From assembly GCF_056746865.1 (NCBI RefSeq), contig NZ_CM163382.1: DNA of 64,000 nucleotides; one strand, written 5' to 3'. Positions 26,609 through 64,000 of the stretch are shown one piece after another. The position numbers and the translations under genes are program-made. A model generated the notes under the pieces. It saw only the letters and a program-made list of their open reading frames with translations, was not told the origin of the DNA and did not search any database. Within the stretch, counting starts at the first letter, position 1. Each line of letters begins with the position of its first letter.

Positions 26609-26926
26609 ATCGTATTCCCATTTGTAATAGACAAAAAAAAGAGAAAAGTAAGCCGCCCTTTCAGGTGGATTACTTTTCTCAGGTCTCTAGTAATTGCAAT
26701 AAGAAATAACATGGAAAGCAGTGGTGTTGTGTGAGAGTAATCACGCTTCTGCTTTTTAAAATTATTTGACAATTCGAATATAACACTGTGATTACGATCA
26801 CATTAGCGATTATGCCCTTATGATAAAAATTATCTCCAGTTACCAGAGATAATGAGAAAGGTAACTTCCCTCTCGCGGGGGAAGTTACCTTTCTTTTTTT
26901 TTGCCTTACGGAAATTGGAGCTAACT

Positions 26927-44280: not shown

Positions 44281-44377
44281 GATGCCTGCGACAGGGCTCT
44301 CTGAATAGTTGATACACCGAAAAGGATGGAATGATGGACAACCGACCTAGGATGGTCTTTTTTACGAGAGGATGCGT

Positions 44378-49162: not shown

Positions 49163-50014
49163 TCACTGTGCAGTTTTCGCTGATCGATTTTCAGCTCTAA
49201 ATTCAAGAACCGTTTCAATATTTCTTTCCTTCAGCATATCAATAACATTTTTATTCATTTGACTATCACTGGTTAATAACTGGTAAACGTTGCTTCTCTC
49301 TTTATCAGAATTTTCTTTAACAGCTGCTTTGCATGCCAAATGCTTATTGAAATTTTCTACATCGCTAGTACAGGAATTTACGGCTGCTGATGAAATATCA
49401 GACGCTGAAGAAACACCATCATCCAAACGTTTTATAGCATTTTCTATACATGAGTTAAGGGAATAAACGACAACTGAGCGATACCCTTCAGACGCACACC
49501 ATTCTAAATTTCTTGAAGGATCGAGTGGTTTTACTTCGCTGGATTGAATTAACTTGTCAAAAACTGACTTATATTCAATCTGTTTTTTATCTATAGCCCA
49601 TACTTCAGTAGCTGATTTATAATTCCCCGTATGCCTATTAACATCAAATCCATGTTTTATAAGCAAATCTGCCCATGAAAGATTTATTGATTCATTGTTA
49701 TGAGGCCATTTTCCTGTCAGAACCGCCCCCATAGACCCCATATATCCGCCATATGATGGTATAGCACCATGGCTCAGTAACTTCTCAGCAACCACAGGGC
49801 AATTAATTACATAAGAGGCGTAAAGCCCATTCCATAAAGCCCCTCTATAGTAATCGCCACGATTAGGTTCTTTTAAGTCGATAGCCTTTGATAATTGTTC
49901 ACACGTTTTGCATGCATCAAAGTTATCCTTATTGCATTGCAATGAACTGGCGGCTGTAGGATTTACAGAGACTATTGAAAGCACTATGCCAAAAAACAAA
50001 TTTATTTTTTTCAT
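49163..50014 (-). CDS. secreted Cys-rich protein of unknown function (283 aa), last gene of cargo operon
   Basis: N-terminal signal peptide (MKKINLFFGIVLSIVSVNPTAA); 8 Cys; strongly AT-rich codon usage; ATG one base after upstream stop (TAGGATG). Confidence 0.7.
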   Translation of the reverse strand: MKKINLFFGIVLSIVSVNPTAASSLQCNKDNFDACKTCEQLSKAIDLKEPNRGDYYRGALWNGLYASYVINCPVVAEKLLSHGAIPSYGGYMGSMGAVLTGKWPHNNESINLSWADLLIKHGFDVNRHTGNYKSATEVWAIDKKQIEYKSVFDKLIQSSEVKPLDPSRNLEWCASEGYRSVVVYSLNSCIENAIKRLDDGVSSASDISSAAVNSCTSDVENFNKHLACKAAVKENSDKERSNVYQLLTSDSQMNKNVIDMLKERNIETVLEFRAENRSAKTAQ

Positions 50015-50015
50015 C

Positions 50016-53000
50016 CTATTTCATCTGCTCTTCAACTTTATTTAGTAATGGTGATATCGCCCACAGATTCTGAAAAGGTAGCATTTTACGGACAGCGTGG
50101 GTTTGCTGGCTGTCAAATTCTCCGTTAAGTACACCATTTGCAACCGTCGCGGCATCACCGCCAAGATCAAAGGTAGGACCAAGTAAAGCACCAATAGCAT
50201 TACGACTCTGAAACCTTGATACCGGAGGCGCACCAAACATCGCGCCAAGACCAAACCTACCGCCGCTTATGTTCTCAACGGTATTCAGCGGCTCAGAGAG
50301 CCAGCCAAGCATTCCGCCCCGGTCGATCCCCTCTTTCACAAGGTTATTCCAGCTGTAGTCGATATCGCGACCGCTTAACTTCTGTTTCATCATATAGACC
50401 ATTGAGCCAAGCGCAATCGTGCCAAGCGCACCAAGATAGAATGAAGCATCGCCCTGCTGGATACCAGATACCAACACCCTGTTATGCTGTGCGAAGATAA
50501 ACGTTTTGAACTGCGTGATCATCTTCCAGCCTTCTTTACTAAAAAACAGCGGTGTATCACCTACGCCAGGCGTTACAATCACTGAGTCTACATCTTTCAG
50601 CACTGCAGACTGGAAAATCTCTCTAGCGAAACGGTCATCCCACAGATGACTATGCCCGGTTAACAGCCCGTCCATATCCTCTCCGTGCTTCCCGAATTGC
50701 TCCCCGATTCGGCGCAGAACATCTTCATTGATGCCGACCTGTGCCATCTTCCGCATTTCACTTTTGGCGAGCGTGCCACCAGCAGAAACCTGGCGAGCCG
50801 CGTCAAGTATCCTCGACTGCACTATCATCCCGGACCATGATTTAAGTGCGCTGTTCCACTGATTCATCAGCGTCCAGTTACCGAATTTCTGCGTCATCCA
50901 GTTCAGGCCTCGCTCAGCGGCGCTTCTCCGGCTATAGGGGTCAGTAAGATCCGCTATAGCCTTTGTACGCGTAGACAGGACATAATCAAGCCCAACGGCC
51001 ATTTCTCGCAAATCCCTGGTTGCAATTTTCACTGAGTCCATATTTTTAAGCATGCTTACCATTGGTCCGAGAGATTTTCTCAGGCCATGCTGCATCATCG
51101 GTCGCATCAGATCAGTTGCAGCGGAGACGGTCATTCCACCAAGCAAACGGAGGAAGTTAATATTCCTAGCAACTCGCCCGGCACGAACAAAGAAACTGCG
51201 TGGATCTTGAGGTGCGCCGTAAGTACCAAGCAGTCGGTCACGCATAGCCGTAATATCCCTAATATCAGCCTCCCGTTGCTTCTCAAGAGCTGCACGTCGT
51301 TTAGGTGTTTTAGCCTCTTTTATTAGCCGGGTATATTCCTCACTAACCTGACGGATTTGCTCCCCCATATCTTTACGGCCAAACTGCGCAGTCAGCTCAA
51401 TTTCTGGTGCCACCTGCCGGAGATAACTTTCCATGATGTAGTTAACATCTGATTCAAGAAAATCTTCTATACGCTCATCAGGAATAAGCAGCGTTCGGCT
51501 TTTAGTGAAACCAGCCCGACCAACGAGTCTCTCTGGGATAATATCGGCTGGTACAAGCCCGGAAGGTGCGCCTATTATTTTATTCACGATCTCGTCAGCA
51601 GCGTCCTCTGCTTCCTCTCGGGATAGAGGCTCCATCTGCTTCAGTGCTCGCTCGCGGCTTGCATTCAGCCTTGTGGTTGAATTTGCCCGTTTTTGCAGTC
51701 GGCGAAGCTCAGAACGATATTTCCGTGGATTATCCAGCAACTCCATATGGCGCTGATAGACAGGAAGCTCACTCTTTGCCTGCGCTATATCATCAAGGCG
51801 TGTTTTAAGGTCAGAGCTTTCTTTCATCATTCTTGCCTGAAGTTTTTCTGATGAAGTCTCGGCCAACTCTTTTTCTATTCTTGTAAGACGCGCCTGTGTG
51901 TCAGTCTCCTGAGATATAAGCTTATTTCGTTTATCCAGTTCTTCCATGAGTAGAATTTTTTTACCAGACCATTTCTCCGCTTCAGCGATTTCACTAGCGA
52001 GAGCATCAGCGCGCGGTGCCGATTCCTCTGCAGTTTTTAGCAATGAATTTATCCTTTCAATTCGCTGACCTGCTTTGTCAGCACCTTTGGCACTAATCCC
52101 TTGTATCCAGTTGGCAATTCGCCCTCTGAATTCAGTGCGGTCGGAAAGTATCTTATCGAACTTATAAATGCGGGGAAGATAACTTTTCGCCGTCACGACA
52201 TCGATATCCTCAGGAAGGATCCCCAGTTCCTGCATACGGGCTTTTGTGGTCTCGAAAATGGGGCGGATTCTGGCGGCTGCTTGTGAAACCTCAGGAATAT
52301 CACTCTGATCACCACGGCGCATAGCCATGCCAACAGCTTCATTGAAATCAATAAAGCTCATCCTCTTCACGCCGCGGGCGCTGACAGATTTGCTGTACTG
52401 CTGGTAAGCATCACGAGTGGCTTCCATCTGCTTATAAAGCATGGCGTCGTATTGCTTAATCTTAGTCTCGACTGCCGTAAACGTAGCCAACCCCTCATCA
52501 TTTTTGGCGAAGAAATAGTTATTTTCGGCAAGCTGCTGGTTAATCTGACGGGAGACAAGAGATGGTGATTGCGCCAAGCGGCCAGCAGGAGTGACACTCA
52601 ACGTTTTGTTAGCAAGTCCAAGTCCAGCGAGCTGTTCCTGATCGAGTGTGGTATTGAAAACCTGAGCTGCACCAATGCTTTGAGGAGAATCCATACCTCG
52701 CAAATGATTACCTACTGAGTTAACCACTGCCTCGCGCGCGCTAGGTCCAGCAAGTAGCTGTGCACCAGCACCAAGGATCCCACCAACGAGAGCATCAACA
52801 ACAACGTTCGATACGCTCTCCATCGGTGAGCGAGCTTCCTGAGTGGCCTGCAATGCGGCCTCTGAAGCAACACTGCCAGCAGCATTGGCTAAAGCAAAAC
52901 GTCCGGCTGTTTCTGCAATACGACCGCCACGAACGACAGCGCCGAACGGAATAAACATAGAAATCGCATTGAATGGATCTGCTAATCTCATTGCTACAGA

Positions 53001-53405
53001 AGAGACTGTACCAGCAAATCCCAAGCCTGAATTGTATTCCATGTCAGCTCTCTGCTGATCGATTCGATGTTTAATTGCCATTGTTTCTTCAGGCGAACCG
53101 GAGTTGATAAACGAATCTGCAAAATCTTCATAGCCTTTAATATCTGCTGCATCGTTATCAAATGGGTTATATCCTTCAATCCTGTCAAACTGACTGAAAG
53201 GAGCACTGGCAATAAAGCTACCCAGCGTGTTATCTATACGAAATGCTGCTTGTCTAGACCTTTGAACGCGTTGATCACTGGTAAATGGGTTCACAGCAGA
53301 AAGCAAAGAAGGTGTTTCCATATAGAAATTACTGTCATCAGGTGCTGCTATTTGCTGAATATCCTCGCCAAGCAACTCTTTAGGATCCTGTTCATATATC
53401 GGCAT
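50016..53405 (-). CDS. large protein of unknown function (1129 aa), predicted alpha-helical with Gly-rich hydrophobic C-terminal region
   Basis: long uninterrupted ORF; start overlaps upstream stop (TAATG); Q/A/E/R-rich; C-terminal hydrophobic/glycine-rich segments (GALGTIALGSMVYMM, GGRFGLGAMFGAPP); no NTPase motifs seen. Confidence 0.8.
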   Translation of the reverse strand: MPIYEQDPKELLGEDIQQIAAPDDSNFYMETPSLLSAVNPFTSDQRVQRSRQAAFRIDNTLGSFIASAPFSQFDRIEGYNPFDNDAADIKGYEDFADSFINSGSPEETMAIKHRIDQQRADMEYNSGLGFAGTVSSVAMRLADPFNAISMFIPFGAVVRGGRIAETAGRFALANAAGSVASEAALQATQEARSPMESVSNVVVDALVGGILGAGAQLLAGPSAREAVVNSVGNHLRGMDSPQSIGAAQVFNTTLDQEQLAGLGLANKTLSVTPAGRLAQSPSLVSRQINQQLAENNYFFAKNDEGLATFTAVETKIKQYDAMLYKQMEATRDAYQQYSKSVSARGVKRMSFIDFNEAVGMAMRRGDQSDIPEVSQAAARIRPIFETTKARMQELGILPEDIDVVTAKSYLPRIYKFDKILSDRTEFRGRIANWIQGISAKGADKAGQRIERINSLLKTAEESAPRADALASEIAEAEKWSGKKILLMEELDKRNKLISQETDTQARLTRIEKELAETSSEKLQARMMKESSDLKTRLDDIAQAKSELPVYQRHMELLDNPRKYRSELRRLQKRANSTTRLNASRERALKQMEPLSREEAEDAADEIVNKIIGAPSGLVPADIIPERLVGRAGFTKSRTLLIPDERIEDFLESDVNYIMESYLRQVAPEIELTAQFGRKDMGEQIRQVSEEYTRLIKEAKTPKRRAALEKQREADIRDITAMRDRLLGTYGAPQDPRSFFVRAGRVARNINFLRLLGGMTVSAATDLMRPMMQHGLRKSLGPMVSMLKNMDSVKIATRDLREMAVGLDYVLSTRTKAIADLTDPYSRRSAAERGLNWMTQKFGNWTLMNQWNSALKSWSGMIVQSRILDAARQVSAGGTLAKSEMRKMAQVGINEDVLRRIGEQFGKHGEDMDGLLTGHSHLWDDRFAREIFQSAVLKDVDSVIVTPGVGDTPLFFSKEGWKMITQFKTFIFAQHNRVLVSGIQQGDASFYLGALGTIALGSMVYMMKQKLSGRDIDYSWNNLVKEGIDRGGMLGWLSEPLNTVENISGGRFGLGAMFGAPPVSRFQSRNAIGALLGPTFDLGGDAATVANGVLNGEFDSQQTHAVRKMLPFQNLWAISPLLNKVEEQMK

Positions 53406-56152
53406 TATTTGCCCCCTGCGTATATATTGCTCGGAAGGTAATTGGCTGAACCATAACCGAATGGTTTGGTCAGATCTGGAGGAGTATATCCATCTTTATT
53501 GCTGAACTGCGGCAGCGGATTGCCTTCTCTCCGCACTCTAGCCTCATCAACACGCTGTTGCTGGAACTGAATGGTTTGCCTGTACATTGGAGATGTCAGC
53601 TGATCCGGCTTGAAACGAACAGGGAGACCATTTTCTCCAATATAATTTCTCGGTTCTATCGCTCCGTTTGCGTCAGGCTGTAAAACCATAACAGCATAAC
53701 TCCTATCCCTTGCCGTAAGGCCATCAGAAACAAGTATTAAGTCCGTATCACTGCGAGGACCGCCAAAGGATTTTGATTTAAGCTCGCGTTTTTCCTGCTC
53801 CCACTGCCCCTGTATCCAGTTACCAGCACCATTATTTACTCCGTACAATGCCTCAGGTGCATACTTCATAACCTCTGCTTTGCCATTAACCGTAGAAACT
53901 CCCCAGGTGGTTCTGATCATGGCATTGGTCATTTTCTCAGCCTGTTCTGCATCGCCACCTGTCTGTACAAAGTTAGCATCGTAAATTGTCTGGTAATCTC
54001 GCTGATAGGCCGCATTTGATTTTCCTGGATCGGTAATATCCGGAGACCACGAACCAAAGGAAGTCAGACTGCTGGCGTTATTTTGTGCAGCAGTTACCCT
54101 CGCCGCGACATATTTTTTGTCTCGCATGGCAGTGGAAAGCATCTGTTTCATTCGGTCATCCTGTTGGAACACCTGACTGTAAGCCATATCAACAGCCTTA
54201 TCCTCCGGCACGCCAGCGCGGGAATAATCGTAAACCTTGCCATAAAATGCCATCGTACTTTTATCAAGTGTTGCCGCTGCCGCCGGATTATTATCGAATA
54301 ACTGACCGTAGAATTTTGCCATCGGGACAACCAGCGCAGGATCTCTTGATGTTGCTCCACTGTTAAGCATTGTTTTAACCTGAGTTGGTATCATGCCGCT
54401 TTTAGTTGTGACGGTGACCAGTGTATTGATGCTCTGCGGATCAGATATGGAAAACGAAGGCGCGATATCCTGCGCGAAATAACGGTCTACCGCTGCCTGA
54501 TTGTTTTTGTCGTTCGGGTCCAGCGGGAAGTTATTTTGCATTGAAGACACGAACCTGTTTCTTCCCTGCTGAATCTCCCACTCCCTATCCATCTCTTTAA
54601 ATTTGGCCTGCATTTTCTCCCAGCGTTGCTGGTTAGCAGCAAATCCAGGAGCATTTGGATCCTGTGGACGTAAACGTTCAAGAATGTCTTGTCGTCCTTC
54701 TGGAGTGAGGTCTTTAGCGGCACCAATGACACCTCCATATTGTATCTGCGCCTGCATATCCTTCCACTTCATAGCGCCAATGCGCGGACCATTGGCCCGG
54801 ATAAAATCGTCCTCAGAAGGTAACTTCTCAGGTTTCAATCCTTCATCAAGGGCTGAATATGCATCTTTAACTACGGTGCTAAGCTGGTCCGCATACTGCT
54901 GGCGGTACTGATTTCTCAGCTCATTAGCCTGCCTCAATGCCTGTATTTGCATTTGAGGGCTCATAGCATCAAATGCCGCATTGCCCGTATAACGCTTAGG
55001 TGAATCAAGGTTAGTTAGACCAAGGGCTGCCGAGATACCAGTTTCAAGCTGTTCGGTGCTATAAGGCATACTGCCATTTTCGTGTTTAATAATCCCAGCA
55101 CATAAAGCAGCTAGTGTCTTTGGGTTAGAGATATCAAGCTGATCATTCTCCCCAACACCAAGCTCACCACACAATGCCCTAATATAAGCATCAGTATTAT
55201 TACCATCACTAGCCGGAGCATAGCGATTAACAATCTCGCTAACGGTGTCATAGCCTTGACGCTGGTAAGACAACATATTTTTACCCAACGCGCGGATTCC
55301 ATGCTCAGGGGTAGCAAACGTTGCAAAACGTCCATCGCTACCGATCTGACCTTCCCACGGGTTAGATTTGCTCGCTTCAATATTACCAGGGTTATTATTA
55401 CGTAAACCACGAGCATCCAATGAATTACCATGTGATATTGCACGACTCACACCATCAAGATCCCCTGGCTCTCCATTAACCTGAAGAAACTCGTTGTATT
55501 TTTGAGCGATATTTCCTATCCATGCTTGCTGCCCCATTTGTTCCTTGAGCTGAGTTTTCTGCTGAACACGCCACTCATCAGGAAGCCCATGCGCATCAGC
55601 GTATTGATCAATAGATTCAAATCGCTGCTTGGCTAAATCGACAAATGCTTGGTTATAGCTATATAGCCCCGCAGACTGAGTGACAGCCAATGCATTTCCT
55701 GACAAATACGTTTGATCTTGGAATTGCTGAAACTGCCCAACTTCATATCGACGTGCCTGATTGTAATAAGACTGCATAGACTGCTGGAGTTGAAAGGATA
55801 ATTTATTCCTTTCCTCACTTTCAGGGATTGAGCCTAATAATGCCTGAGCCCTTTCCTGCATATTTTTCATAACAGCGTCACTCTGACCAAGAGCGTTTTT
55901 ACCCTGTTTAGAAATCAGCCCATTTTCAGGGTTGTTAATCTGGTCATCTGCAAATTGGTTAAATTGCAGTAACGCCTCCTGGGCCATAGCAACATTCGCT
56001 TTCTGCCTGGCTTCACCATATGCCACCGCATACTGATCTGCGACATTCGCCAGCACCTGACCTGCTTGAGGAACATCGAAGGTCTGAAAACCACCGGTTT
56101 GCACACCACGACTTTGCACCTGGCGTCCGGATGTAGTAGGAACAACAAGCAT
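53405..56152 (-). CDS. large protein of unknown function (915 aa), Q/N/A-rich
   Basis: ATG at 56152 preceded by TAGGAGGT Shine-Dalgarno; contains conserved-looking block RGLRNNNPGNIEASKSNPWEGQ...; no NTPase motifs seen. Confidence 0.8.
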   Translation of the reverse strand: MLVVPTTSGRQVQSRGVQTGGFQTFDVPQAGQVLANVADQYAVAYGEARQKANVAMAQEALLQFNQFADDQINNPENGLISKQGKNALGQSDAVMKNMQERAQALLGSIPESEERNKLSFQLQQSMQSYYNQARRYEVGQFQQFQDQTYLSGNALAVTQSAGLYSYNQAFVDLAKQRFESIDQYADAHGLPDEWRVQQKTQLKEQMGQQAWIGNIAQKYNEFLQVNGEPGDLDGVSRAISHGNSLDARGLRNNNPGNIEASKSNPWEGQIGSDGRFATFATPEHGIRALGKNMLSYQRQGYDTVSEIVNRYAPASDGNNTDAYIRALCGELGVGENDQLDISNPKTLAALCAGIIKHENGSMPYSTEQLETGISAALGLTNLDSPKRYTGNAAFDAMSPQMQIQALRQANELRNQYRQQYADQLSTVVKDAYSALDEGLKPEKLPSEDDFIRANGPRIGAMKWKDMQAQIQYGGVIGAAKDLTPEGRQDILERLRPQDPNAPGFAANQQRWEKMQAKFKEMDREWEIQQGRNRFVSSMQNNFPLDPNDKNNQAAVDRYFAQDIAPSFSISDPQSINTLVTVTTKSGMIPTQVKTMLNSGATSRDPALVVPMAKFYGQLFDNNPAAAATLDKSTMAFYGKVYDYSRAGVPEDKAVDMAYSQVFQQDDRMKQMLSTAMRDKKYVAARVTAAQNNASSLTSFGSWSPDITDPGKSNAAYQRDYQTIYDANFVQTGGDAEQAEKMTNAMIRTTWGVSTVNGKAEVMKYAPEALYGVNNGAGNWIQGQWEQEKRELKSKSFGGPRSDTDLILVSDGLTARDRSYAVMVLQPDANGAIEPRNYIGENGLPVRFKPDQLTSPMYRQTIQFQQQRVDEARVRREGNPLPQFSNKDGYTPPDLTKPFGYGSANYLPSNIYAGGK

Positions 56153-56785: not shown

Positions 56786-57994
56786 TCAGGCTGTCGCCTG
56801 AATCATTTCGGTGGGTTCCTGCTTCAACGGGCGGCCTGACTGCACCATCCCTCCACAGGCAAGAACGGCGTGCCCCGCCGCTAAAATGTTACGAGCGCCG
56901 TTTACATCGGCGTTCGCTGTATATCCACATACCTGGCATCTGAATTGACTTTGTGACAGGCGATTTTCTTTCGCTGTATGACCACAGCACGCGCAACGCT
57001 GGCTTGTGTACGCTGGCGGAACAGCAAGCACCTGACCGCCACACCAGAGCTGCTTGTACTCAAGCTGACGGCGCATTTCATACCAGCCCTGATCCAGTAT
57101 CGAACGGTTTAAACCTGATTTTGCCCGGACATTGCGCCCCGGCTGGCTGACCGTACCCGAGGCTGACTTTGACATGTTGCTGACCTTCAAATCCTCAATG
57201 ACTATCATTGCGTGGTTTTTGCTGATGGTCGTTGTGACTTTGTGAAGGTAGTCCCTGCGGATATTTGCGATACGGGAATGCAGTCGCTGTATTTTGCGTT
57301 TCTGCTTCTGCCAGTTGTTGCTGAATTTAACCTTGCGGCTTAACTGGCGCTGAAGTCTCGCCAGCTTCTTCTGGTTTTTATGAAAACTGTTTACAGGCTC
57401 AAAGACCGTGCCATCTGACAGCGTGGCGAGTTTAGCCACGCCAGCATCCAGCCCGACCATTAATGCTGAAGGGTGAACCGGAGTTGATACTTCACTTTCT
57501 GTCTGAATACTGATGTACCACTTACCGCAGGACTGGCTGACAGTGACATTTTTCACAACACCCGTGACCTGACGGCTGTTCCGGTAGCGCATCCAGCCCA
57601 GTTTCGGCAGAAAAATACGGCTGTTTTCCTGATCGAGCTTAACACCCTGCGGATAGCGGAATGCATCATGCTGTCCCCGCTTTTTGAATCGGGGAAAAGC
57701 GGCACGCTTCTGAAAGAAATTTTTGTAGGCTCGCTCAAGGTCTTTCAGTGACTGCTGCAATGGCTGTGAGGGAGAATCTTTAAGCCATTGCGTTTCAGTA
57801 GCATTTTTCCATTCAACCAGCCAGGAAGTCATCTTTGCATAAGAAATATATTTGTTCCCGGCCTCATGATTCTCATTCTGAAGCGCCAGAGCACGATTGA
57901 AAACGAAACGACATGCGCCCGCGAAGCGCCTCATTTCACGCTCCTGTTTTCCATTTGGTCTTAACTGGAATTTGAAAGCTTGTAGTCGTTTCAT
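56786..57994 (-). CDS. tnpB: TnpB (OrfB), RuvC-like RNA-guided nuclease of IS200/IS605 elements
   Basis: 402-aa ORF; C-terminal zinc-finger cysteines (CACCGH...CQVCGY) and RuvC-like blocks. Confidence 0.85.
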
Positions 57995-58016
57995 ATGCCA
58001 AATTATACTTTGGCCT

Positions 58017-58433
58017 ATGAAAAAAGAAACCGATATCCGACGTGGAAGGCACTGTGTCTTCCTGATGCACGTTCACCTGGTCTTTGTTACCAAGTACCGA
58101 CGCCAGATTTTTGACCATGACGCAATAGAAAAACTACGCACTTACTTTTCAAGTGTATGTGCTGATTTTGAAGCTGAACTGGTTGAAATGGATGGAGAAC
58201 GAGATCACGTTCACCTGCTAATTAACTATCCTCCCAAATTGGCGATATCCACCCTGGTGAACAGTCTCAAGGGCGTATCGAGTAGATTATTGCGACGAGA
58301 TCGACCAGATATTGCAGTCAGGTATTACTACAAAGGCGTTTTATGGAGTCCCAGCTATTTTGCCAGTAGCTGCGGAGGTGCGCCAATATCCATCATCCGC
58401 CAATACATTGAACAACAGCAAACACCTAGTTAG
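58017..58433 (+). CDS. tnpA: IS200/IS605 TnpA, Y1 HuH transposase
   Basis: ORF 57897..58433; preferred ATG at 58017 (MKKETDIRRGRH...); HuH motifs (HVHLVF, HVHLLI) and C-terminal catalytic Tyr region (RQYIEQQ). Confidence 0.85.
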   Translation: MKKETDIRRGRHCVFLMHVHLVFVTKYRRQIFDHDAIEKLRTYFSSVCADFEAELVEMDGERDHVHLLINYPPKLAISTLVNSLKGVSSRLLRRDRPDIAVRYYYKGVLWSPSYFASSCGGAPISIIRQYIEQQQTPS

Positions 58434-58516
58434 GTGGAAAACCGCGCCTTATATCCCCGACCTGAAGGACGGGGCTTTACGGCGCACTGGGTAATTACTC
58501 TGTTCGCTGTTGTGAA

Positions 58517-58942
58517 TTAAAACGGTATCCCGTCCCCGTACGGATCATCGTGCTGGCCTGTCTGTTGCTTTGCCCTGTTCAGTGCATCAGTAGCCTGCCC
58601 CTGCTGGCCTTTTTTGCCGCCCGGTCGCGCCGTTCGCGCACTGATTACGCTGTCTGCGATAACCTGCCATCCCTGCCTCGTTTCGCCGTTCTGGCCCGTC
58701 CACCAGCTCACCTGCATGTTACCGGCCACGCTCACCAGTTCGCCTTTGTGGTGTTTTGCCAGTGCGTCAGCCTGTCTGCCAAACGCCAGGACGGATAACC
58801 ACATCGTCGCCGTTCCGTCATCTGTCTGATTGCATGGAAGGGGGACCGCCATACTCGCCATCGCCATTTGTGTGCCCTTGCTGGTGGTCTTTAACTGCGG
58901 GTCAGCCACCAGCCGCCCGTAAGCTGATATTTGCGCCGTCAT
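58517..58942 (-). CDS. ssb: single-stranded DNA-binding protein (SSB-like), 141 aa
   Basis: OB-fold-like sequence and C-terminal acidic tip ending ...DDPYGDGIPF (compare E. coli SSB ...DDDIPF). Confidence 0.75.
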   Translation of the reverse strand: MTAQISAYGRLVADPQLKTTSKGTQMAMASMAVPLPCNQTDDGTATMWLSVLAFGRQADALAKHHKGELVSVAGNMQVSWWTGQNGETRQGWQVIADSVISARTARPGGKKGQQGQATDALNRAKQQTGQHDDPYGDGIPF

Positions 58943-59001
58943 GCTGTTTGTTCTCCGGTTTTAACGTGATAGTTACGCTTGTTTACACTCTTACAGTGAA
59001 A

Positions 59002-59129
59002 TTTTGCGGGTTACAATCGCACATTTGCGGGTTATAACTGCCGTTTTGCGGGTTACGTGCGGGTTATTAATTTCCTTTTTAATCATTCAGTTAATTAACT
59101 TATGCACAGGATAACCCGCATAACCCGCA
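59002..59129. repeat. iteron cluster B: four direct copies of TTTGCGGGTTA(C/T) plus two inverted copies (ATAACCCGCA), immediately 3' of the primase-helicase gene
   Basis: read directly: ttttgcgggttac ... tttgcgggttat ... tttgcgggttac gtgcgggttat ... ataacccgcataacccgca. Confidence 0.7.
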
Positions 59130-59152
59130 ACTTTTTACCTCACACAGGGAAG

Positions 59153-61279
59153 TTAATCTTCTGCTTCAGGCTGGAACATCAGCACGTAAAAAATATGTTG
59201 CTTCCCGCCAATCCTGCCGAGCGCCTTTTTCTTGTAACGGCGGTCGCCTCCCGCTTCCAGCATTCCGGCTGCACTCAACGCGCGGGCAAAGTGAGACGGA
59301 TTAAATCCCTGTGCTATCTCACCCTCAAACACATGCGGGAACGTGTAAAAACGGAACTCGTCATCTTCGTTTCTGATACTCCCCTTTCTGTATCCGGCAA
59401 GGTCTTTAATCGGTAAATCACGCTCGTCGCTGTTTGGATAGGGAAGGTATCGACTGAACCCGAACGACGACAAAAACGCCTCAGCCTGTTCAACCATCTG
59501 TTTAAACTCCCTGTTCCCCGTGCCGAACTCCTTCACCCAGGCATTAAAATTATGCTGAATGGCATCGCGGCATTCCTGCTCATCCCAGCCAGTAACATGA
59601 CCGGAAAGTACAAGCGCGGCCTCCAGTATGGCGAATCGTTCCCCCACACGGTGAACCTGTTCGCCGTAGCTCTCCGGTATCAGGTTGCGCCACCGCTCGC
59701 GACATGCCCTTACCGCGTCCTTTGCCTCCTGCTGGTGTTCTGCCAGCCATTTAACCCACTCACGACCTGCCGCCCCGTGATTTTCTGTCCAGGCATCTTT
59801 TAACGCGTCTGCGTGCGCCTTTCCGGTGCTGTATTCGTGAAACTGCGAGGCCTTTTCCATCGGCACGTTAAGCAGACGGACAAGCTGCCCCGCTTTAATT
59901 TTTATCCCTTCCGTTTTGAGGAATGTTTCAACGTCCATTTCTCCGGTGCTGATTGCCACCGTGCGCCAGTGTTTTATCTCCCTGTTGCCGCCGTCCTTCG
60001 CCCCCTGTAATTTCCCCGAACCGTTAAACAGCGTATAGGCTGACGTGGACACCTCCCGCGCGTTTCCGGCCTGGCCTATTTCATCCAGGGGTAACAGCCC
60101 GTCATTATGTGCTTCGGCCTCGTTGGCGATACCTAACGCCGTTCCGTACCAGGTCAGCCGTTGCGCGTCCGGCTCTCCCCATAAACTTGATGCAATGTTC
60201 TGTGTGGTGGTTTTACCTGCTGATGATTGCTCAAAAAGATGAACCCCGAAGCCGTCAGCACCCACCAGCCCGATTAATGGTGCAGATAGCGATACCGCCA
60301 CACCCAGCATCATGGACGGATTACCACCAGCCAGCCGTGCCACGGTATCGCGCCAGCCCTCCGCTGTTCCCGCCACGGAATAGCCATTAACAGCGGCAGT
60401 TTTTCCGGTAAACAGGATGGGTTTCTCTGATTCACCGATGATCGAACCATCCGGCATGATGTACGCACCAAAATGCCACCCCGTTGTTGTGCTTAACTGC
60501 CATTCCTCATGGTTTCCGCTTAACTGCATCCAGTCAGCCAGGATAGCCCTGTATTTGCCGTTGGTCGTCACGTTAAGGCCGTGGTCTTTCAGCAACCGCC
60601 AGCCGTCACGGTCACCAATGCCTCCGCACGGGACCGCCATTGTAATGACCTCATGGTTTGCTGGTTTTTTCCAGCGCATCACGCGGTAATGCTCTTTGCC
60701 GATTGTTCCTGTTCCCAGTAGTTCAAGCGGAGAACATAACCACGTCTCAGGCCGGATAATTTCGCCTGACTGCTTGTCCACTTTGGGCGTTACCCAGAAA
60801 ACACCATCGACGCGACTTTCAACACGAGGCTTTAATTCGTCATCATAATTTCCGGTGAAATTTGTCTTCGCCGGAAGGTTGATCACCAGACTGTTACCGC
60901 GTTCCGCATCATACTTCAGTCCAGCCATGCGCGGAGTCCAGTCCTCCGGCTGCTGATCAACAAAGCTGCGGTAGCAACGCGCCTCCTTCACACCCGCCAC
61001 TGCAAGCAGTGTCGCTATCTGTGTAAGGTGCTGCTCTGATATTTCACCAGCACGATAAATGCGCACGTAATAGCGTCCTTTGTCGATGATTTGCGTGTCT
61101 GCCAGACTCGCCAGTTGTTCCGGTCCAAGAATAACTGGATGTGTATCATCTGCCGCAATATGCTTTCCGGCCCATTCGCTCCACTCTTTCGCATGTGCCC
61201 AGGCATCACTACCCGCAAAGATAATCACCTCCGTCATTTTGTCTTTCGGCTGGTGCTTTAAATTCGGTGCGCGTTTCAT
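59153..61279 (-). CDS. replication primase-helicase (P4 alpha-like)
   Basis: 708-aa ORF; helicase Walker A-like (SSAGKTT) and Walker B-like (LLPLDEI) blocks; adjacent iterons; typical of satellite/island replication modules. Confidence 0.8.
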   Translation of the reverse strand: MKRAPNLKHQPKDKMTEVIIFAGSDAWAHAKEWSEWAGKHIAADDTHPVILGPEQLASLADTQIIDKGRYYVRIYRAGEISEQHLTQIATLLAVAGVKEARCYRSFVDQQPEDWTPRMAGLKYDAERGNSLVINLPAKTNFTGNYDDELKPRVESRVDGVFWVTPKVDKQSGEIIRPETWLCSPLELLGTGTIGKEHYRVMRWKKPANHEVITMAVPCGGIGDRDGWRLLKDHGLNVTTNGKYRAILADWMQLSGNHEEWQLSTTTGWHFGAYIMPDGSIIGESEKPILFTGKTAAVNGYSVAGTAEGWRDTVARLAGGNPSMMLGVAVSLSAPLIGLVGADGFGVHLFEQSSAGKTTTQNIASSLWGEPDAQRLTWYGTALGIANEAEAHNDGLLPLDEIGQAGNAREVSTSAYTLFNGSGKLQGAKDGGNREIKHWRTVAISTGEMDVETFLKTEGIKIKAGQLVRLLNVPMEKASQFHEYSTGKAHADALKDAWTENHGAAGREWVKWLAEHQQEAKDAVRACRERWRNLIPESYGEQVHRVGERFAILEAALVLSGHVTGWDEQECRDAIQHNFNAWVKEFGTGNREFKQMVEQAEAFLSSFGFSRYLPYPNSDERDLPIKDLAGYRKGSIRNEDDEFRFYTFPHVFEGEIAQGFNPSHFARALSAAGMLEAGGDRRYKKKALGRIGGKQHIFYVLMFQPEAED

Positions 61280-61578
61280 TTCTTGCCCCTGAATGCGTTA
61301 ATCATGTTCTTTATTACCTGAATATTTGCCCGTGCTTTCTCTTTACTGGTGGGCTTACTGCGTGGTGCTGCACATACCAGTGAAAAATCACGCCGGAACT
61401 GATGAACGGGCATCACACAGTCATAGTCGTACCCTGCGCGGCGGTATGTAATGTGCCGTTCATACACGGAATTAATAACCACGCTGTCGCCATATTTATC
61501 CCGGAAAATATCCCCGATCCTGATTTTCGGATGAGTCTGTCCGCTGGCATTTAAGCCAGTAAATTTAATCTTCTTCAT
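61276..61578 (-). CDS. hypothetical protein (100 aa), translationally coupled to primase-helicase
   Basis: ATG start; stop overlaps downstream start. Confidence 0.55.
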   Translation of the reverse strand: MKKIKFTGLNASGQTHPKIRIGDIFRDKYGDSVVINSVYERHITYRRAGYDYDCVMPVHQFRRDFSLVCAAPRSKPTSKEKARANIQVIKNMINAFRGKK

Positions 61579-61580
61579 GT

Positions 61581-61838
61581 TTATTTCCCGGTGTGAGGTT
61601 CTTCTTTATATTTATGGGCTAACAAATCTGGTAATTGCCTGTATTTATCCTCGGCAATATATTCAGAATAATCGACAGCACTGTTCAGTATATCTAACGC
61701 CGTTTCATGCTCCAGATTCGAAACTATAAGGAACGTTGCTACTTTTAGCATATTCGCGATATGCAAAAGAGCATCAATTTCATTTTTTGGCGCTTCACTG
61801 AATTTTTGCTCCAGAAGAATAAATCGTTCATCACGCAT
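61581..61838 (-). CDS. hypothetical protein (85 aa)
   Basis: ATG start; 2-bp gap to next gene. Confidence 0.55.
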   Translation of the reverse strand: MRDERFILLEQKFSEAPKNEIDALLHIANMLKVATFLIVSNLEHETALDILNSAVDYSEYIAEDKYRQLPDLLAHKYKEEPHTGK

Positions 61839-62034
61839 AGTATTCCCCCTGACGGATGCGGGCAGTAAATACCATCACGCAGCCAGCCGGGGATTGCTGG
61901 CGTGCTTCCTGTTCGCTGGTGGCCACGATGGTAATCACACGCGGTTTTGCGGCGCTCAGGGCGATAAAACGCCAGGCGAATTTATTCAGGTTGTGCGAAT
62001 CCCGCCCTTGCGGGTGTATGGTATGATTTCTCAT
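61831..62034 (-). CDS. hypothetical protein (67 aa), likely first gene of the replication operon
   Basis: internal ATG at 62034 of the 415-aa ORF 61831..63078; stop overlaps next start (ATGCGTGA); the upstream 348 codons overlap the operator and the Arc-like gene and are unlikely to be real. Confidence 0.4.
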   Translation of the reverse strand: MRNHTIHPQGRDSHNLNKFAWRFIALSAAKPRVITIVATSEQEARQQSPAGCVMVFTARIRQGEYYA

Positions 62035-62129
62035 AGCTACCTCGATACTCTCGTTATCGTTGGTGGTTAGAAGCCCTGCGAGTGGTAACGACACTTGCGG
62101 GGCTTTGTTTTTTGTTGCACTTACTGTTA

Positions 62130-62175
62130 ATGTACGTACGTAATATTGATGATAATAGGAGTTACGTACGTACAT
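62130..62175. promoter_or_regulatory. perfect 14-bp inverted repeat ATGTACGTACGTAA (18-bp spacer), putative operator
   Basis: half-sites 62130-62143 and 62162-62175 read directly; overlaps the start codon of the Arc-like gene and sits upstream of the divergent replication operon. Confidence 0.6.
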
Positions 62176-62365
62176 GTCAACATTAAAGCGGGATAAATCA
62201 CCACGCGGCGAGGGATGGTCGCCGACATTCCAGATACGAATTAGCAAAGAACTACGCCAGCAAGTAAACGAGGCAGCAACCGCCGATGGCCTAACCCTCG
62301 GCAATTGGTTTAAAGAATTAGCTCGTGCCGAACTAAAGCGACGCGGCATTGAACCTAAAGGCTGA
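62174..62365 (+). CDS. Arc/Mnt-like ribbon-helix-helix DNA-binding protein (63 aa)
   Basis: ...PTFQIRISKELRQQVNEAATADGLTLGNWFKELARAELKRRG resembles P22 Arc (...PQFNLRWPREVLDLVRKVAEENGRSVNSEIYQRVMESFKKEG); divergent from the minus-strand operon. Confidence 0.6.
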   Translation: MSTLKRDKSPRGEGWSPTFQIRISKELRQQVNEAATADGLTLGNWFKELARAELKRRGIEPKG

Positions 62366-62917
62366 TGTATGACTGAAAAGCAGACCGATAACAAACTTTC
62401 TCTACCAGAGAATAAACCAGCAGGCTTCTTACCAAGAAAAATCCTTGATGAGATCAAACGCCGCCAGCGGCGCAAGGCCAAAGAGCAGGAGTAACCATCA
62501 CCAGCGCCGTGGTGCGGTGAACTGTGGCGCACAGGGTTACAGGTATCTACGATGACTGACAAATCATTAAAGAAATTATCCTCATCCAGGAAAAAACAAC
62601 GCAAAAATGCGGTAAGCGAACAAGAACAGGAAAGATTTGCGCCATGTGCGTTTGTCCTTGAGAAGTTCTTAAAAGAGTACAGGCGCACAAAAATGGAATC
62701 GCATACCTGGAAAACATCGCAGTATGGCGATGCTAAAGAGCAGGAATAGCCCACCAGCAAGCCAGCACACTGATCACATTGCCCACCAGCCGCAAATCTG
62801 GCATTGTTGGCGATGCGTTTGATTTCCTTTGTTCCCACTGGCGACCTATCCCGGTCGCCTTTGTTTTGCCTGTTATCCAGCAACGGGGCGCTTTTTCTTT
62901 CTGTAACGTTCGGATCG

Positions 62918-63475
62918 TTACACATTGCTTTCACCCTCCAGAAAATCAGGCTGATATTTACGCCATAGCGCCCGCTCTTCTCGTTCCAGTGCATCTTTTG
63001 CCTCTTTGCATTGCTGTAACCTGTAACCGCGTTTGCTGGCTTCCTGTTGATATGCAGCCTGACGTTTACTGAAATCATTCAGCATGGCAAACGGAACACC
63101 ATAACCCCCCGTTTTGCGGATTGAAGGAATCACCTCGCGGAATACCCAGTTACTGAAACGGTGCGCAAATGTGCCTGGTGTGGAAGCTTTACGGCTGCGG
63201 GCGATCAGTTTGTAGAAACCTGATTCAGAGACAACATTCCAGCTTCTGGCACCACCACGCTTACCGGAATGACCCTCGGTTAAAGCTAGGGTCATTACCT
63301 CATCGTTATCCAGAACTGAAACGGCATCAGTAACATTGCTGATTTCCAGCGCGGCACACACATCAGCGCCAACAAACCACGGCTCGCCGTTGATACTCAC
63401 TATGCGCACCTGAATGTCATCGAATTTAATGACAGAGATTTCAGTGCGACCGGCATAAAAGACAGGTTTACGCAT
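62918..63475 (-). CDS. Bro-N domain protein (phage antirepressor-like)
   Basis: 185-aa ORF; Bro-N-like N-terminus (...[37 protein letters not shown]...). Confidence 0.7.
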
Positions 63476-63950
63476 GGCTGCTCACCTCCATGCGGCGGGC
63501 TAACCAGCGTTGCGAAAGACGAATTAATTCAGCTTTCCGCTGGTGGTAGTCCTGGCCTAACTCAATCAGCGTGATATTGCTCTGCTCAAGGTAAGAAAGG
63601 TGCTCAAGCTGCAGCGTGCTCATGTGGTCGCGTGGTTCGCCTGTGATGCCGTTCGCCTGCGCCCACTGTTTTGCATTCATGCCACCCAGCACGATACGCG
63701 CCAGCATATTGGCTTCCGTGGTGTAGTGGTGCTGGAGCGTGTTTTTACCCAGTTCAGCCCGGTACGCCTCCAGCGCGGCACACATTGGCTTAAAGTAGCT
63801 GGCTACGGTGATACGGGCTTTCAGTTCCCGGCGTAACGCTGCGGAACGTACAGGCGCTACCTTGTGTAGCTCCTCCTCGCATTTGATGAAGTACTGACGA
63901 ACGGCGCGGCCCTGTTCGGTGCGTTCGATCATTGCCAGTTCTTTCGCCAT
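63468..63950 (-). CDS. hypothetical phage-like regulatory protein (160 aa)
   Basis: ATG-initiated ORF overlapping the Bro-N gene start by 8 bp; no motif I can assign. Confidence 0.5.
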
Positions 63951-64000
63951 TCCGACACTTAACAGATAGTCTTTACCGGGTCTGCCAGAGTGCTTAATCT

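What the first reader, a model, noticed from the sequence alone, without database searches (positions are those of the whole stretch)
62034..62365. Arc-like repressor gene with a perfect 14-bp inverted-repeat operator, divergent from the replication operon
ATGTACGTACGTAA half-sites spaced 18 bp apart overlap the start codon of a ribbon-helix-helix gene and lie just upstream of the 67/85/100-aa/primase operon. This looks like a compact autoregulated immunity switch for the element.
Basis: seen in the sequence. Interest (0 to 1): 0.35.

Follow-up and report, generated by a model that had tools for sequence, protein, structure and literature searches.

The report
Arc-like repressor switch of a phage satellite
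A tiny Arc-like DNA-binding protein and its two palindromic binding boxes sit on top of the main promoter of a phage-parasitising island (PICI) in E. coli. This is probably the repressor that keeps the island's replication genes silent, a role never assigned in Gram-negative PICIs.

Summary
A perfect 14-bp inverted repeat (62130-62143 / 62162-62175, 18-bp gap) abuts the start codon of a 63-aa gene (62174-62365). That gene runs divergently from an Icd-like/85-aa/DUF4222/DUF927-primase operon.

The protein models as a ribbon-helix-helix (RHH) dimer, and its best structural matches are Arc repressor. The element is a Gram-negative phage-inducible chromosomal island (PICI).

The functional unit is an 8-bp palindromic box, GTACGTAC, present twice and nowhere else in the 64 kb. 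The right box fills the spacer of a near-consensus leftward promoter (TTGACA-17-TATTAT) whose -35 lies in codons 1-3 of the RHH gene. The left box covers that promoter's early transcribed region and the predicted promoter of the RHH gene.

Both boxes are invariant in 36 distinct relatives from other genera, while the spacer drifts. Sister proteins with different beta-strands carry different palindromes in the same geometry. All 69 related PICIs examined carry an equivalent divergent RHH-type (ribbon-helix-helix-like) gene, and each protein type inspected had its own boxes.

The repressor/immunity reading is therefore well supported comparatively, but it is untested experimentally. No paper in the searched open-access library (PMC open access plus bioRxiv) describes it, and the 2018 founding paper calls a global repressor "unclear".

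A candidate antisense RNA against the Icd-like gene lies next to the boxes.

The parts
62174..62365 (+). 63-aa Arc-like ribbon-helix-helix regulator gene. Beta-strand is T18-R22 (TFQIR); helices are 25-37 and 42-56.
   Evidence: ORF. AF2 models. Arc is the best fold match and best PDB sequence match. PHROG 228 'Arc-like repressor', E 1.8e-4. In the 17-sequence alignment S16-P17-T18-F19-Q20, R22 and I23 are invariant (I21 nearly so).
62162..62175 (.). Right operator arm/box O_R (core GTACGTAC 62166-62173). It lies in the 17-bp spacer of the leftward promoter and abuts the RHH start codon.
   Evidence: The viral-contig relatives were selected on this box, so its conservation is a test only in the loci fetched through the protein.
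62130..62143 (.). Left operator arm/box O_L (core GTACGTAC 62132-62139). It lies at about +2 to +15 of the leftward transcript and between the -10 and +1 of the predicted RHH promoter.
   Evidence: The left core is invariant in 36/36 unique relatives, most of which were retrieved using the right box alone.
62152..62180 (-). P_L, the promoter of the Icd-like/replication operon. -35 TTGACA (62180-62175), 17-bp spacer, -10 TATTAT (62157-62152). Predicted start about 62145.
   Evidence: 11/12 consensus match. -35 TTGACA in 39/40 relatives and a TAnnAT-type -10 at 16-18 bp. Codon 2 is always TCA and codon 3 always starts with A, although the third residue varies.
62105..62133 (+). Predicted P_R, the promoter of the RHH gene. 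-35 TTGTTT (62105-62110), 17-bp spacer, extended -10 TGtTAATGT (62125-62133). Predicted start about 62140. Shine-Dalgarno AGGAG at 62157-62161.
   Evidence: Read from the sequence. TGnTAAnGT and the TTG are conserved columns in the 36-sequence alignment. It is below the threshold of the scan, so it is inferred.
61831..62034 (-). First gene of the repressed operon: 67-aa host cell division inhibitor Icd-like protein.
   Evidence: NCBIfam NF033153, E 8.5e-18. PGAP annotation in sister loci.
59153..61838 (-). Rest of the operon: 85-aa ORF (61581-61838), DUF4222 protein (61276-61578) and DUF927 primase/helicase (59153-61279).
   Evidence: Pfam DUF4222 E 3.8e-18 and DUF927 E 1.1e-46. Overlapping stop/start codons.
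62070..62116 (+). Plus-strand intrinsic terminator hairpin plus T tract. It marks the left boundary of the exchangeable cassette and is the probable 3' end of an antisense RNA.
   Evidence: More stable on the + strand in 58/58 variants. 12 of 13 pairs show compensatory changes. In most E. coli matches homology ends at 62106 (query position 307) and never extends through the boxes.
62019..62113 (+). Candidate ~80-nt cis-antisense RNA to the Icd-like ribosome-binding site and start codon. Extended -10 TGgTATGAT at 62019-62027; RNA about 62034-62113.
   Evidence: Fold of -40.1 kcal/mol, z -6.5. A -10 of form TAnnnT is conserved across divergent coding contexts. No Rfam family matches.
62369..62869 (+). 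Remainder of the rightward operon: 41-aa ORF (62369-62494, probably a recombination scar), 65-aa conserved ORF (62552-62749, phrog_21027) and a terminator (62840-62859 plus T tract).

Best explanation
The 63-aa protein is an Arc-like ribbon-helix-helix repressor encoded by a Gram-negative PICI, a phage satellite. Dimers insert their paired beta-strands (T18/Q20/R22) into the major groove of two copies of the palindrome GTACGTAC.

The right box lies in the spacer between the -35 and -10 of P_L. P_L is a near-consensus promoter that drives the Icd-like division inhibitor and the island's primase/replication genes. The left box covers the first transcribed bases of P_L and the -10/+1 region of the weak promoter of the repressor gene itself.

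Occupancy therefore shuts off the replication operon and limits the repressor's own synthesis. The two promoters overlap start to start, so RNA polymerase can use only one at a time, which gives switch-like behaviour.

- **Shown:** the sequence anatomy, the fold prediction, conservation of the boxes, and covariation between protein and box.
- **Inferred:** binding, repression, autoregulation, and the role as the silencing/immunity determinant. It is also inferred that AlpA-driven leftward transcription from upstream, running antisense through the repressor gene, overrides it on induction.
For: - **Fold.** RHH/Arc-like.
- **P_L.** TTGACA-17-TATTAT, 11/12 consensus, with the right box in the spacer.
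- **Box conservation.** The GTACGTAC cores are conserved across all nine protein-fetched loci, exact in eight. The Klebsiella locus L012 has GTACGTAT at the right box, and its protein is 65-67% identical by different measures; the others are 63-79% identical. The left box is invariant in 36/36 unique relatives, most retrieved by the right box only. The spacer varies except at the P_L -10.
- **-35 constraint.** The -35 is held at the DNA level inside codons 1-3 while residue 3 varies.
- **Covariation.** Sister proteins with other beta-strands carry other palindromes, always two copies, with the right one abutting the start codon. PPYQMRL goes with GGTAATTACC, PQFRMRI with AGGTGGTCAC(CT), and PPFHMRI with AGGTGTACACCT.
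- **Generality.** In the other PICIs a YlcI/YnfO-type protein (RHH inferred from its sequence pattern, not modelled) occupies the same position. It has two or three type-specific GGTG-N5-CAC boxes placed the same way around a TTGAC(G/A) -35, plus usually one after its own -10.
- **Specificity of the sites.** GTACGTAC occurs nowhere else in the 64 kb or in the complete island L001.
- **Open question.** Fillol-Salom 2018 (PMC6092414) states that a global repressor in Gram-negative PICIs is 'unclear' and that AlpA is an activator.
Against: - There are no binding or expression data.
- Sequence matches to RHH families are all below curated thresholds.
- P_R is only a weak consensus match and is not called by the scan.
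- The Shine-Dalgarno to AUG spacing is long (12 nt).
- One subtype (L203, strand KKNIRFE) has a different beta-strand but still a GTACGTAC core, so the recognition code is not simple.
- Box spacing of 33-35 bp is not an integral number of helical turns, so cooperative binding is uncertain.
- AlpA overexpression alone induces a related island, so this repressor cannot be an absolute block.
Confidence: 0.75

Rival explanations
1. The protein binds the boxes, but it is not the maintenance or immunity repressor. Instead it acts as a Cro/Arc-type modulator, made only after induction, that damps or times expression of the replication operon. Silencing in the quiescent state would be achieved otherwise: no AlpA, the antisense RNA, or host factors.
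For: - P22 Arc itself moderates an operon rather than maintaining repression (PMC11016777).
- AlpA is necessary and sufficient for induction of EcCICFT073.
- P_R is weak, and the overlapping strong P_L would occlude it.
Against: - P_L matches the consensus at 11/12 positions and would fire constitutively, driving a division inhibitor and replication, unless something bound it.
- The boxes are the only conserved candidate protein-binding sites there.
- The gene is divergent with its own promoter, like P22 mnt, and is not inside the regulated operon like arc.
- Hypervariable specificity types fit an immunity determinant.
Confidence: 0.15
2. The inverted repeat acts as RNA. A 14-bp stem would sequester the Shine-Dalgarno sequence and start codon of the 63-aa gene, or structure the read-through transcript, giving translational control rather than a protein operator.
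For: If transcribed from upstream of 62130, the region folds at -20.9 kcal/mol (z -4.4) with the Shine-Dalgarno in the loop and the AUG in the stem. Two copies of any palindrome can always pair.
Against: - Each box is itself self-complementary in the five Arc-like subtypes examined. A hairpin does not need this, but a symmetric dimer does.
- In many relatives the extended boxes are direct repeats.
- In YlcI/YnfO-type islands there are up to three boxes, direct-oriented in some types (for example L167) and inverted in others, so no common hairpin is implied.
- From the predicted P_R start (about 62140) the left arm is not in the mRNA, and that RNA is unstructured (-4.2 kcal/mol, z +1.5).
Confidence: 0.04
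3. The gene is the antitoxin of a type II toxin-antitoxin pair, as in NCBI's 'HicB family antitoxin' label. The palindrome would be the TA operator.
For: - Weak Pfam HicB hit (E 0.0038).
- Source annotations name it HicB.
- RHH antitoxins appear among the fold matches.
Against: - No HicA or other toxin family is adjacent.
- At 63 aa the protein has only the DNA-binding module, and the HicB match is below the gathering score.
- Across genera the constant partner is the divergent Icd-like/primase operon of PICIs, not a co-transcribed toxin.
- The downstream 41-aa ORF is not seen downstream in the homologous loci examined.
Confidence: 0.04

Closest known systems
Phage P22 immI region (Mnt, Arc, sar RNA, Pant/Pmnt)
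   Same: - Small RHH repressors.
- By general knowledge of P22, not checked here: the operator sits within a strong promoter and overlaps a divergent promoter.
- A divergently encoded repressor, as mnt is.
- A small antisense RNA against the first regulated gene (sar; here only a candidate).
- Best structural and sequence matches are to Arc. The P22 roles are summarised in PMC11016777.
   Different: - Not a member of the Pfam Arc family, and no significant sequence identity.
- One repressor rather than two.
- The regulated genes are an Icd-like division inhibitor and a replication module, not an antirepressor.
- The sites are two separate 8-bp palindromes about 34 bp apart, rather than one 21-bp or 17-bp operator.
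- The host element is a satellite, not a phage.
YlcI/YnfO-family small proteins of other E. coli PICIs (e.g. EcCICFT073 WP_000190587.1)
   Same: - Same genomic slot: between alpA/Bro and the Icd-like operon, on the opposite strand.
- Same promoter geometry and the same flanking conserved sequences.
- Type-specific repeated boxes.
- Weak NCBIfam similarity (E 4e-4).
   Different: - No pairwise similarity by BLASTP, and the score is below the family cut-off.
- Two boxes instead of two or three, and a 67-bp rather than ~125-bp control region.
- In this element the leftward -35 lies inside the repressor's coding sequence.
- No function has been published for the YlcI/YnfO proteins either.
SaPI Stl / Gram-positive PICI Rpr master repressors
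   Same: A divergently transcribed repressor at the junction between the integration and replication modules of a phage-inducible island, proposed to hold the replication operon silent (PMC6092414).
   Different: - Stl/Rpr are larger proteins that are unrelated by domain organisation to this 63-aa RHH (general knowledge, not checked here).
- They are inactivated by binding a helper-phage protein. No such partner is known here.
- Gram-negative PICI induction is known to run through AlpA.
Plasmid pMV158 CopG (RHH copy-number repressor)
   Same: By general knowledge, not checked here, a ~45-aa RHH that represses the promoter of a replication-initiator operon by binding a pseudo-palindrome over the promoter. 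It appears among the fold matches.
   Different: CopG is the first gene of the operon it represses, and its antisense RNA targets rep. Here the repressor is divergent and sits on a chromosomal island.

Membership tests
Ribbon-helix-helix (Arc/MetJ/CopG) superfamily | Beta-alpha-alpha topology with an N-terminal strand | tested here: met
   The AF2 fused-dimer model has E18-22, H25-37 and H42-56 in both copies, with pLDDT 82-93 in the core. The monomer model has the same helices.
Ribbon-helix-helix (Arc/MetJ/CopG) superfamily | Obligate dimer formed by an antiparallel two-stranded ribbon | tested here: inconclusive
   This was modelled only as a linker-fused tandem. The two strands are the only sheet elements, so they must pair with each other. 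The model matches permuted single-chain Arc, chains of the F-plasmid relaxosome and AvtR. There is no multimer prediction and no experiment.
Ribbon-helix-helix (Arc/MetJ/CopG) superfamily | Significant profile match to an RHH family | tested here: inconclusive
   All matches are sub-threshold but concordant: Pfam HicB E 0.0038 (17.6 bits against 21); NCBIfam YlcI_YnfO_N E 4e-4 (20.3 against 30); PHROG 228 Arc-like E 1.8e-4; PDB Arc E 0.22.
Ribbon-helix-helix (Arc/MetJ/CopG) superfamily | Binds repeated or palindromic sites at a promoter | not testable with these tools
   Indirect support only: two conserved palindromic boxes in promoter-critical positions, which covary with the beta-strand sequence.
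Arc repressor family proper (Pfam Arc) | Match to the Arc family profile | tested here: not met
   The Pfam scan at E <= 0.1 returned only HicB and DUF6290. The resemblance to Arc is at the fold level, with 17-23% identity.
HicB antitoxin (type II TA) | Adjacent hicA toxin gene, and a HicB N-terminal domain in addition to the DNA-binding module | tested here: not met
   No HicA or toxin hit in neighbouring ORFs. The protein is 63 aa, and only residues 18-46 match the HicB profile. Its conserved partner is the divergent PICI operon.
YlcI/YnfO family (NCBIfam NF041551) | Score above the curated cut-off | tested here: not met
   20.3 bits against a cut-off of 30. No BLASTP alignment with the CFT073 member.
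Gram-negative PICI (phage-inducible chromosomal island) | int and alpA, then a unidirectional replication module (primase), then a few phage late genes, inserted at a chromosomal att site | tested here: inconclusive
   The window holds Bro-N, an Ant-like gene, Icd-like, DUF4222, DUF927 primase and SSB. int and alpA would lie beyond base 64000. The identical switch in strain A36 sits in an island with integrase, an HTH gene in the alpA position, primase, SSB, capsid, head decoration and small terminase genes. The CFT073 relative is the published EcCICFT073.
P22 immI-type switch | Repressor operator inside a strong promoter that overlaps a divergent promoter for a repressor gene | tested here: met
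   The geometry follows. It rests on sequence, and the transcription start sites are predicted, not mapped.

The most novel reading that the evidence does not exclude
The divergent RHH gene plus its boxes is the missing master-repressor/immunity cassette of Gram-negative PICIs. It is a hypervariable, recombinationally exchangeable module, bounded by the terminator hairpin and by the conserved KRRQRRKAKEQE-coding tail. Dozens of orthogonal repressor-operator specificities would keep co-resident islands from cross-regulating. It works together with a previously undescribed cis-antisense RNA against the Icd-like division inhibitor, and it is overridden by AlpA-driven antisense read-through. That would make a three-layer switch convergent on P22 immI.
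Probability: 0.4. Interest if true: 0.7.

Novelty: new member of a known kind. Interest (0 to 1): 0.5.

Why it matters
Gram-negative PICIs occur in about a quarter of complete E. coli genomes: 1,262 of 5,426 matched the Icd-like region. They move virulence and defence genes. Yet the only regulator described for them is the activator AlpA, and the founding paper says a global repressor is 'unclear' (PMC6092414).

A small repressor whose boxes sit on the main promoter gives a concrete, easily tested answer to what keeps these islands silent. The natural series of protein/box pairs could explain how several islands coexist in one cell: GTACGTAC, GGTAATTACC, AGGTGTACACCT and many GGTG-N5-CAC variants. 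The same series is a ready-made set of candidate orthogonal repressor-operator pairs, and a data set for the RHH recognition code.

Tried and rejected
- **Rfam.** A scan of 58000-64000 at E <= 1 found nothing. The leader is therefore not a known C4/CI/IsrK-type immunity RNA, which other PICIs do carry (PMC10111431).
- **Pfam.** It gave no Arc or RHH_1 hit, only sub-threshold HicB and DUF6290.
- **Alignment query.** The Icd-like alignment was too divergent for the search for related loci, so a single-protein query was used instead.
- **Toxin-antitoxin reading.** Rejected: no toxin partner, and the conserved context is the PICI operon.
- **RNA-hairpin reading.** Rejected mainly because each box is self-palindromic, and because the YlcI/YnfO-type islands carry up to three boxes in no consistent inverted arrangement.
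- **Hairpin 62070-62106 as a leader structure or terminator of the minus-strand operon.** Rejected: its G-U pairs exist only on the plus strand, and no U tract follows it on the minus strand.
- **Literature.** Searches for any description of an RHH/YlcI/YnfO repressor in PICIs found none. Subscription-only papers could not be searched.
- **First ORF caller.** My first crude caller missed the RHH gene in several cassette types. Checking three representative loci showed a YlcI/YnfO-like gene there too.

Full report
**1. Observation**

The inverted repeat is exactly as described. The arms are 62130-62143 ATGTACGTACGTAA and 62162-62175 TTACGTACGTACAT, 100% complementary, with an 18-nt gap. The right arm ends in the first two bases of the ATG of a 63-codon ORF, 62174-62365.

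To the left, on the other strand, lie four tightly packed genes:
- 67 aa, Icd-like (NF033153, E 8.5e-18)
- 85 aa
- 100 aa (DUF4222)
- 708 aa (DUF927 primase/helicase)

A perfect inverted repeat of 14 bp or more with a gap of 40 or less appeared in none of 100 Markov simulations of the window. The core GTACGTAC occurs only at 62132 and 62166 in 64 kb.

**2. What the element is**

The near-identical region in E. coli A36 lies in a ~12-kb island. That island carries integrase, an HTH gene in the alpA position, this switch, Icd-like, DUF4222, DUF927 primase, SSB, capsid, head-decoration and small-terminase genes.

A more distant relative is the published island EcCICFT073 of strain CFT073. The window therefore holds part of a Gram-negative phage-inducible chromosomal island (PICI). 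Its int/alpA end lies beyond base 64000. Its late end is interrupted by an IS200/IS605 element.

**3. The protein**

Sequence matches are weak but all point the same way:
- Pfam HicB, E 0.0038
- NCBIfam YlcI_YnfO_N, E 4e-4, and MobA
- PHROG 228 'Arc-like repressor', E 1.8e-4
- Best PDB sequence hit Arc, E 0.22, collinear, aligning Arc's PQFNLRW with PTFQIRI

AlphaFold2 gives two confident helices, 25-37 and 42-56. A linker-fused tandem adds strands 18-22 and 93-97, which can only pair with each other.

Foldseek's top five hits for the monomer are all Arc repressor (1myl, probability 0.98, TM 0.85), followed by AmrZ, CopA, PutA, ParG and CopG. The tandem model hits chains of the F-plasmid relaxosome, permuted single-chain Arc and AvtR.

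The family is small: 21 cluster representatives at E <= 1e-3 among 1.84 billion. S16-P17-T18-F19-Q20, R22 and I23 are invariant, and I21 nearly so. 'Arc-like RHH' is correct at the fold level. Membership of the Pfam Arc, HicB or YlcI/YnfO families is not met.

**4. Promoter anatomy**

*The leftward promoter, P_L.* The consensus scan finds one promoter in the region, on the minus strand: TTGACA (62180-62175), 17 bp, TATTAT (62157-62152), an 11/12 match. Its -35 is the reverse complement of codons 1-3 of the RHH gene (ATG TCA A). The right box fills its spacer. The left box lies at about +2 to +15.

*The predicted rightward promoter, P_R.* On the plus strand there is an extended -10, TGtTAATGT (62125-62133). 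A TTG lies 17 bp upstream, in the tail of a terminator. This would start the RHH mRNA at about 62140, inside the left box (conserved columns).

The two predicted start sites are about 5 bp apart and point towards each other, so the promoters are mutually exclusive. All start sites are predictions.

**5. The decisive comparative tests**

*(a) Homologues in other genera.* Proteins 63-79% identical from Edwardsiella, Salmonella, Morganella and Klebsiella, plus metagenomes, sit in the same slot. They lie between an AlpA/Bro/Rha region and an Icd-like-led primase operon. All carry two GTACGTAC cores, exact in eight of nine loci; the Klebsiella locus has GTACGTAT at the right box.

*(b) An unbiased test of the left box.* I scanned viral contigs with the right box plus start codon only. 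This gave 46 loci encoding the family. After deduplication, and together with the protein-fetched loci, there were 36 unique upstream sequences.
- The left GTACGTAC is invariant in all of them.
- The spacer is free to vary, except at a TAnnAT that forms the P_L -10.
- With four sister-subtype loci added, ATGTCAA (the P_L -35) is present in 39 of 40.
- The third residue of the protein varies, yet its codon always starts with A. The constraint is therefore on the DNA.

*(c) Sister subtypes.* These were retrieved through the Icd-like protein. Each has a different palindrome, always in two copies, with the right copy abutting the start codon:

| Locus | Beta-strand | Box |
|---|---|---|
| window type | PTFQIRI | GTACGTAC |
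| L202 | PPYQMRL | GGTAATTACC |
| L187 | PQFRMRI | AGGTGGTCAC(CT) |
| L194 | PPFHMRI | AGGTGTACACCT |
| L203 | KKNIRFE | TGGTACGTACCA |

L203 keeps the same core despite a different strand, so the recognition code is not one-to-one.

*(d) The majority PICI type.* Here an unrelated YlcI/YnfO-type protein (RHH inferred from its sequence pattern; no BLASTP similarity) occupies the same slot. It has two or three type-specific boxes of form GGTG-N5-CAC. Two flank the P_L -10 next to a TTGAC(G/A) -35, and a third usually follows its own -10.

All 69 Icd-like loci examined carry an equivalent divergent RHH-type gene. Three cassette types that my first ORF caller missed were checked on one representative each.

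Protein and box covary.

**6. Mechanism**

Best-supported reading, confidence about 0.75 for binding and repression:
- RHH dimers bind the two boxes.
- Occupancy of the right box blocks RNA polymerase at P_L.
- Occupancy of the left box blocks both P_L escape and P_R.
- The result is repression of the Icd-like/replication operon and negative autoregulation.

Each box is self-palindromic, as expected for a symmetric dimer centred on the dyad. The basic N-terminal tail may reach the A/T-rich flanks, as Arc's N-terminal arms do (an inference from general knowledge of Arc, not checked here).

That this protein is the maintenance or immunity repressor is less certain, about 0.5. Three points favour it. 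P_L is too strong to be left unregulated. The boxes occur nowhere else in the island. The many specificity types resemble phage immunity regions.

AlpA is a helper-induced activator that is necessary and sufficient for induction (PMC6092414). alpA and the Bro/Ant genes read leftward towards this switch. The scan found no minus-strand terminator in 61700-63000. I therefore infer that induced transcription runs antisense through the RHH operon, lowering repressor synthesis and bypassing P_L. This step is untested.

**7. The cassette and its boundaries**

In most E. coli matches homology ends at 62106, the foot of the hairpin, and in none does it extend through the boxes. It resumes at about 62450-62465. 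That point lies inside a 41-aa ORF whose tail, EIKRRQRRKAKEQE, is the C-terminus of the YlcI/YnfO proteins.

Boxes plus repressor thus behave as an exchangeable module, and the 41-aa ORF looks like a recombination scar. This RHH type is present in 23-29 of 5,426 complete E. coli genomes, annotated 'hypothetical' or 'HicB family antitoxin'. The conserved Icd-like block is in 1,262 genomes.

**8. A neighbouring feature: a candidate antisense RNA**

The hairpin 62070-62106 followed by T-rich sequence is an intrinsic terminator on the plus strand.
- In 58 of 58 sequence variants it is more stable on the plus strand, by a mean of 5.8 kcal/mol. The reason is 1-4 G-U pairs that would be A-C mismatches on the minus strand.
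- 12 of 13 pairs show compensatory changes.
- No plus-strand gene lies upstream.
- A -10 of form TAnnnT is conserved 8-15 nt before the complement of the Icd-like start codon, in lineages whose Icd-like N-termini differ. In the window it is the extended -10 TGgTATGAT at 62019-62027.
- The predicted ~80-nt RNA (about 62034-62113) folds at -40.1 kcal/mol, z -6.5. In the window the 5' hairpin carries the anti-Shine-Dalgarno CCUC in its stem; in some relatives, read by eye, it lies in the loop.
- Rfam has no match.

This would be a cis-antisense regulator of the division-inhibitor gene. It recalls P22 sar and, more loosely, P1 c4/icd (the P1 comparison is from general knowledge). It is a lead, not a demonstrated RNA.

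**9. Comparison with known systems, and novelty**

Functionally the closest system is P22 immI: Mnt, Arc and sar controlling Pant (roles summarised in PMC11016777). By position the protein resembles Mnt, and by size and fold it resembles Arc. It also parallels CopG and the Stl/Rpr master repressors of Gram-positive PICIs.

The mechanism is of a known kind. What appears unreported is its presence and likely role in Gram-negative PICIs:
- The 2018 paper leaves the repressor open.
- The 2023 survey of about 3,400 islands describes the region only as a 'Bro zone' with unidirectional genes.
- The cf-PICI paper does not mention repression.
- No paper in the searchable library combines PICI/AlpA with RHH, YlcI/YnfO or operators.

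Subscription-only literature could not be checked.

**10. Verdict**

It is a new member of a known kind of switch. Interest is moderate (0.5), because it makes an open question about satellite silencing directly testable and exposes a natural library of repressor-operator pairs.

Noticed in passing
window 62019-62116 (+): Candidate ~80-nt cis-antisense RNA complementary to the Shine-Dalgarno sequence and start codon of the Icd-like gene. It has an extended -10 (TGgTATGAT), a 5' hairpin carrying CCUC (in the stem in this window, in the loop in some relatives) and a plus-strand-specific terminator with compensatory changes. No Rfam family matches.
   Followed up: partly
window 62369-62494 (+): The C-terminal 14 residues of this 41-aa ORF (EIKRRQRRKAKEQE) equal the C-terminus of the YlcI/YnfO proteins of other PICIs. 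Homology to those islands resumes at about 62450. It is probably the scar of a cassette exchange rather than a functional gene.
   Followed up: partly
window 62552-62749 (+): 65-aa ORF (phrog_21027, unknown function), the last gene of the rightward operon. It has homologues in the several YlcI/YnfO-type PICIs examined (CFT073, L003, L004, L157) and is followed by a plus-strand terminator at 62840-62859. It could be a co-regulator.
   Followed up: no
L134-L213 (e.g. L167, L171, L178, L157, L162): Every YlcI/YnfO-type PICI subtype has its own two or three boxes (for example GGTGTCAGCCAC, GGTGTTGAACACC, GGTGTAAGACAC, TGTGCGCACA, TGGATTCCAGT). The arrangement around the leftward promoter and after the rightward -10 is always the same. 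This is a large natural set of candidate repressor-operator pairs.
   Followed up: partly
window 56786-58433: IS200/IS605 element (tnpB 56786-57994 on the minus strand, tnpA about 58023-58433 on the plus strand) inserted directly after the island's SSB gene. The late region of this PICI copy may be disrupted.
   Followed up: partly
window 49163-56152 (-): Three consecutive large ORFs (283, 1129 and 915 aa) with no Pfam or PADLOC match. They lie between the IS element and a type I-E CRISPR-Cas locus (Cse1 44372-45940 and a Cas_CT1975-family protein 46488-47543, both by Pfam; the 899-aa ORF at 41581-44280 was not scanned). They may be an uncharacterised cargo or defence module.
   Followed up: partly
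window 26855-26896: Another perfect inverted repeat, with 16-bp arms and a short gap. It is the only other repeat of 14 bp or more in the window.
   Followed up: no
window 62918-64000 (-): A Bro-N protein and an AntA/AntB-like antirepressor homologue (truncated by the window end) read towards the switch, and the scan of 61700-63000 found no minus-strand terminator. Their transcripts would run antisense through the repressor operon.
   Followed up: no
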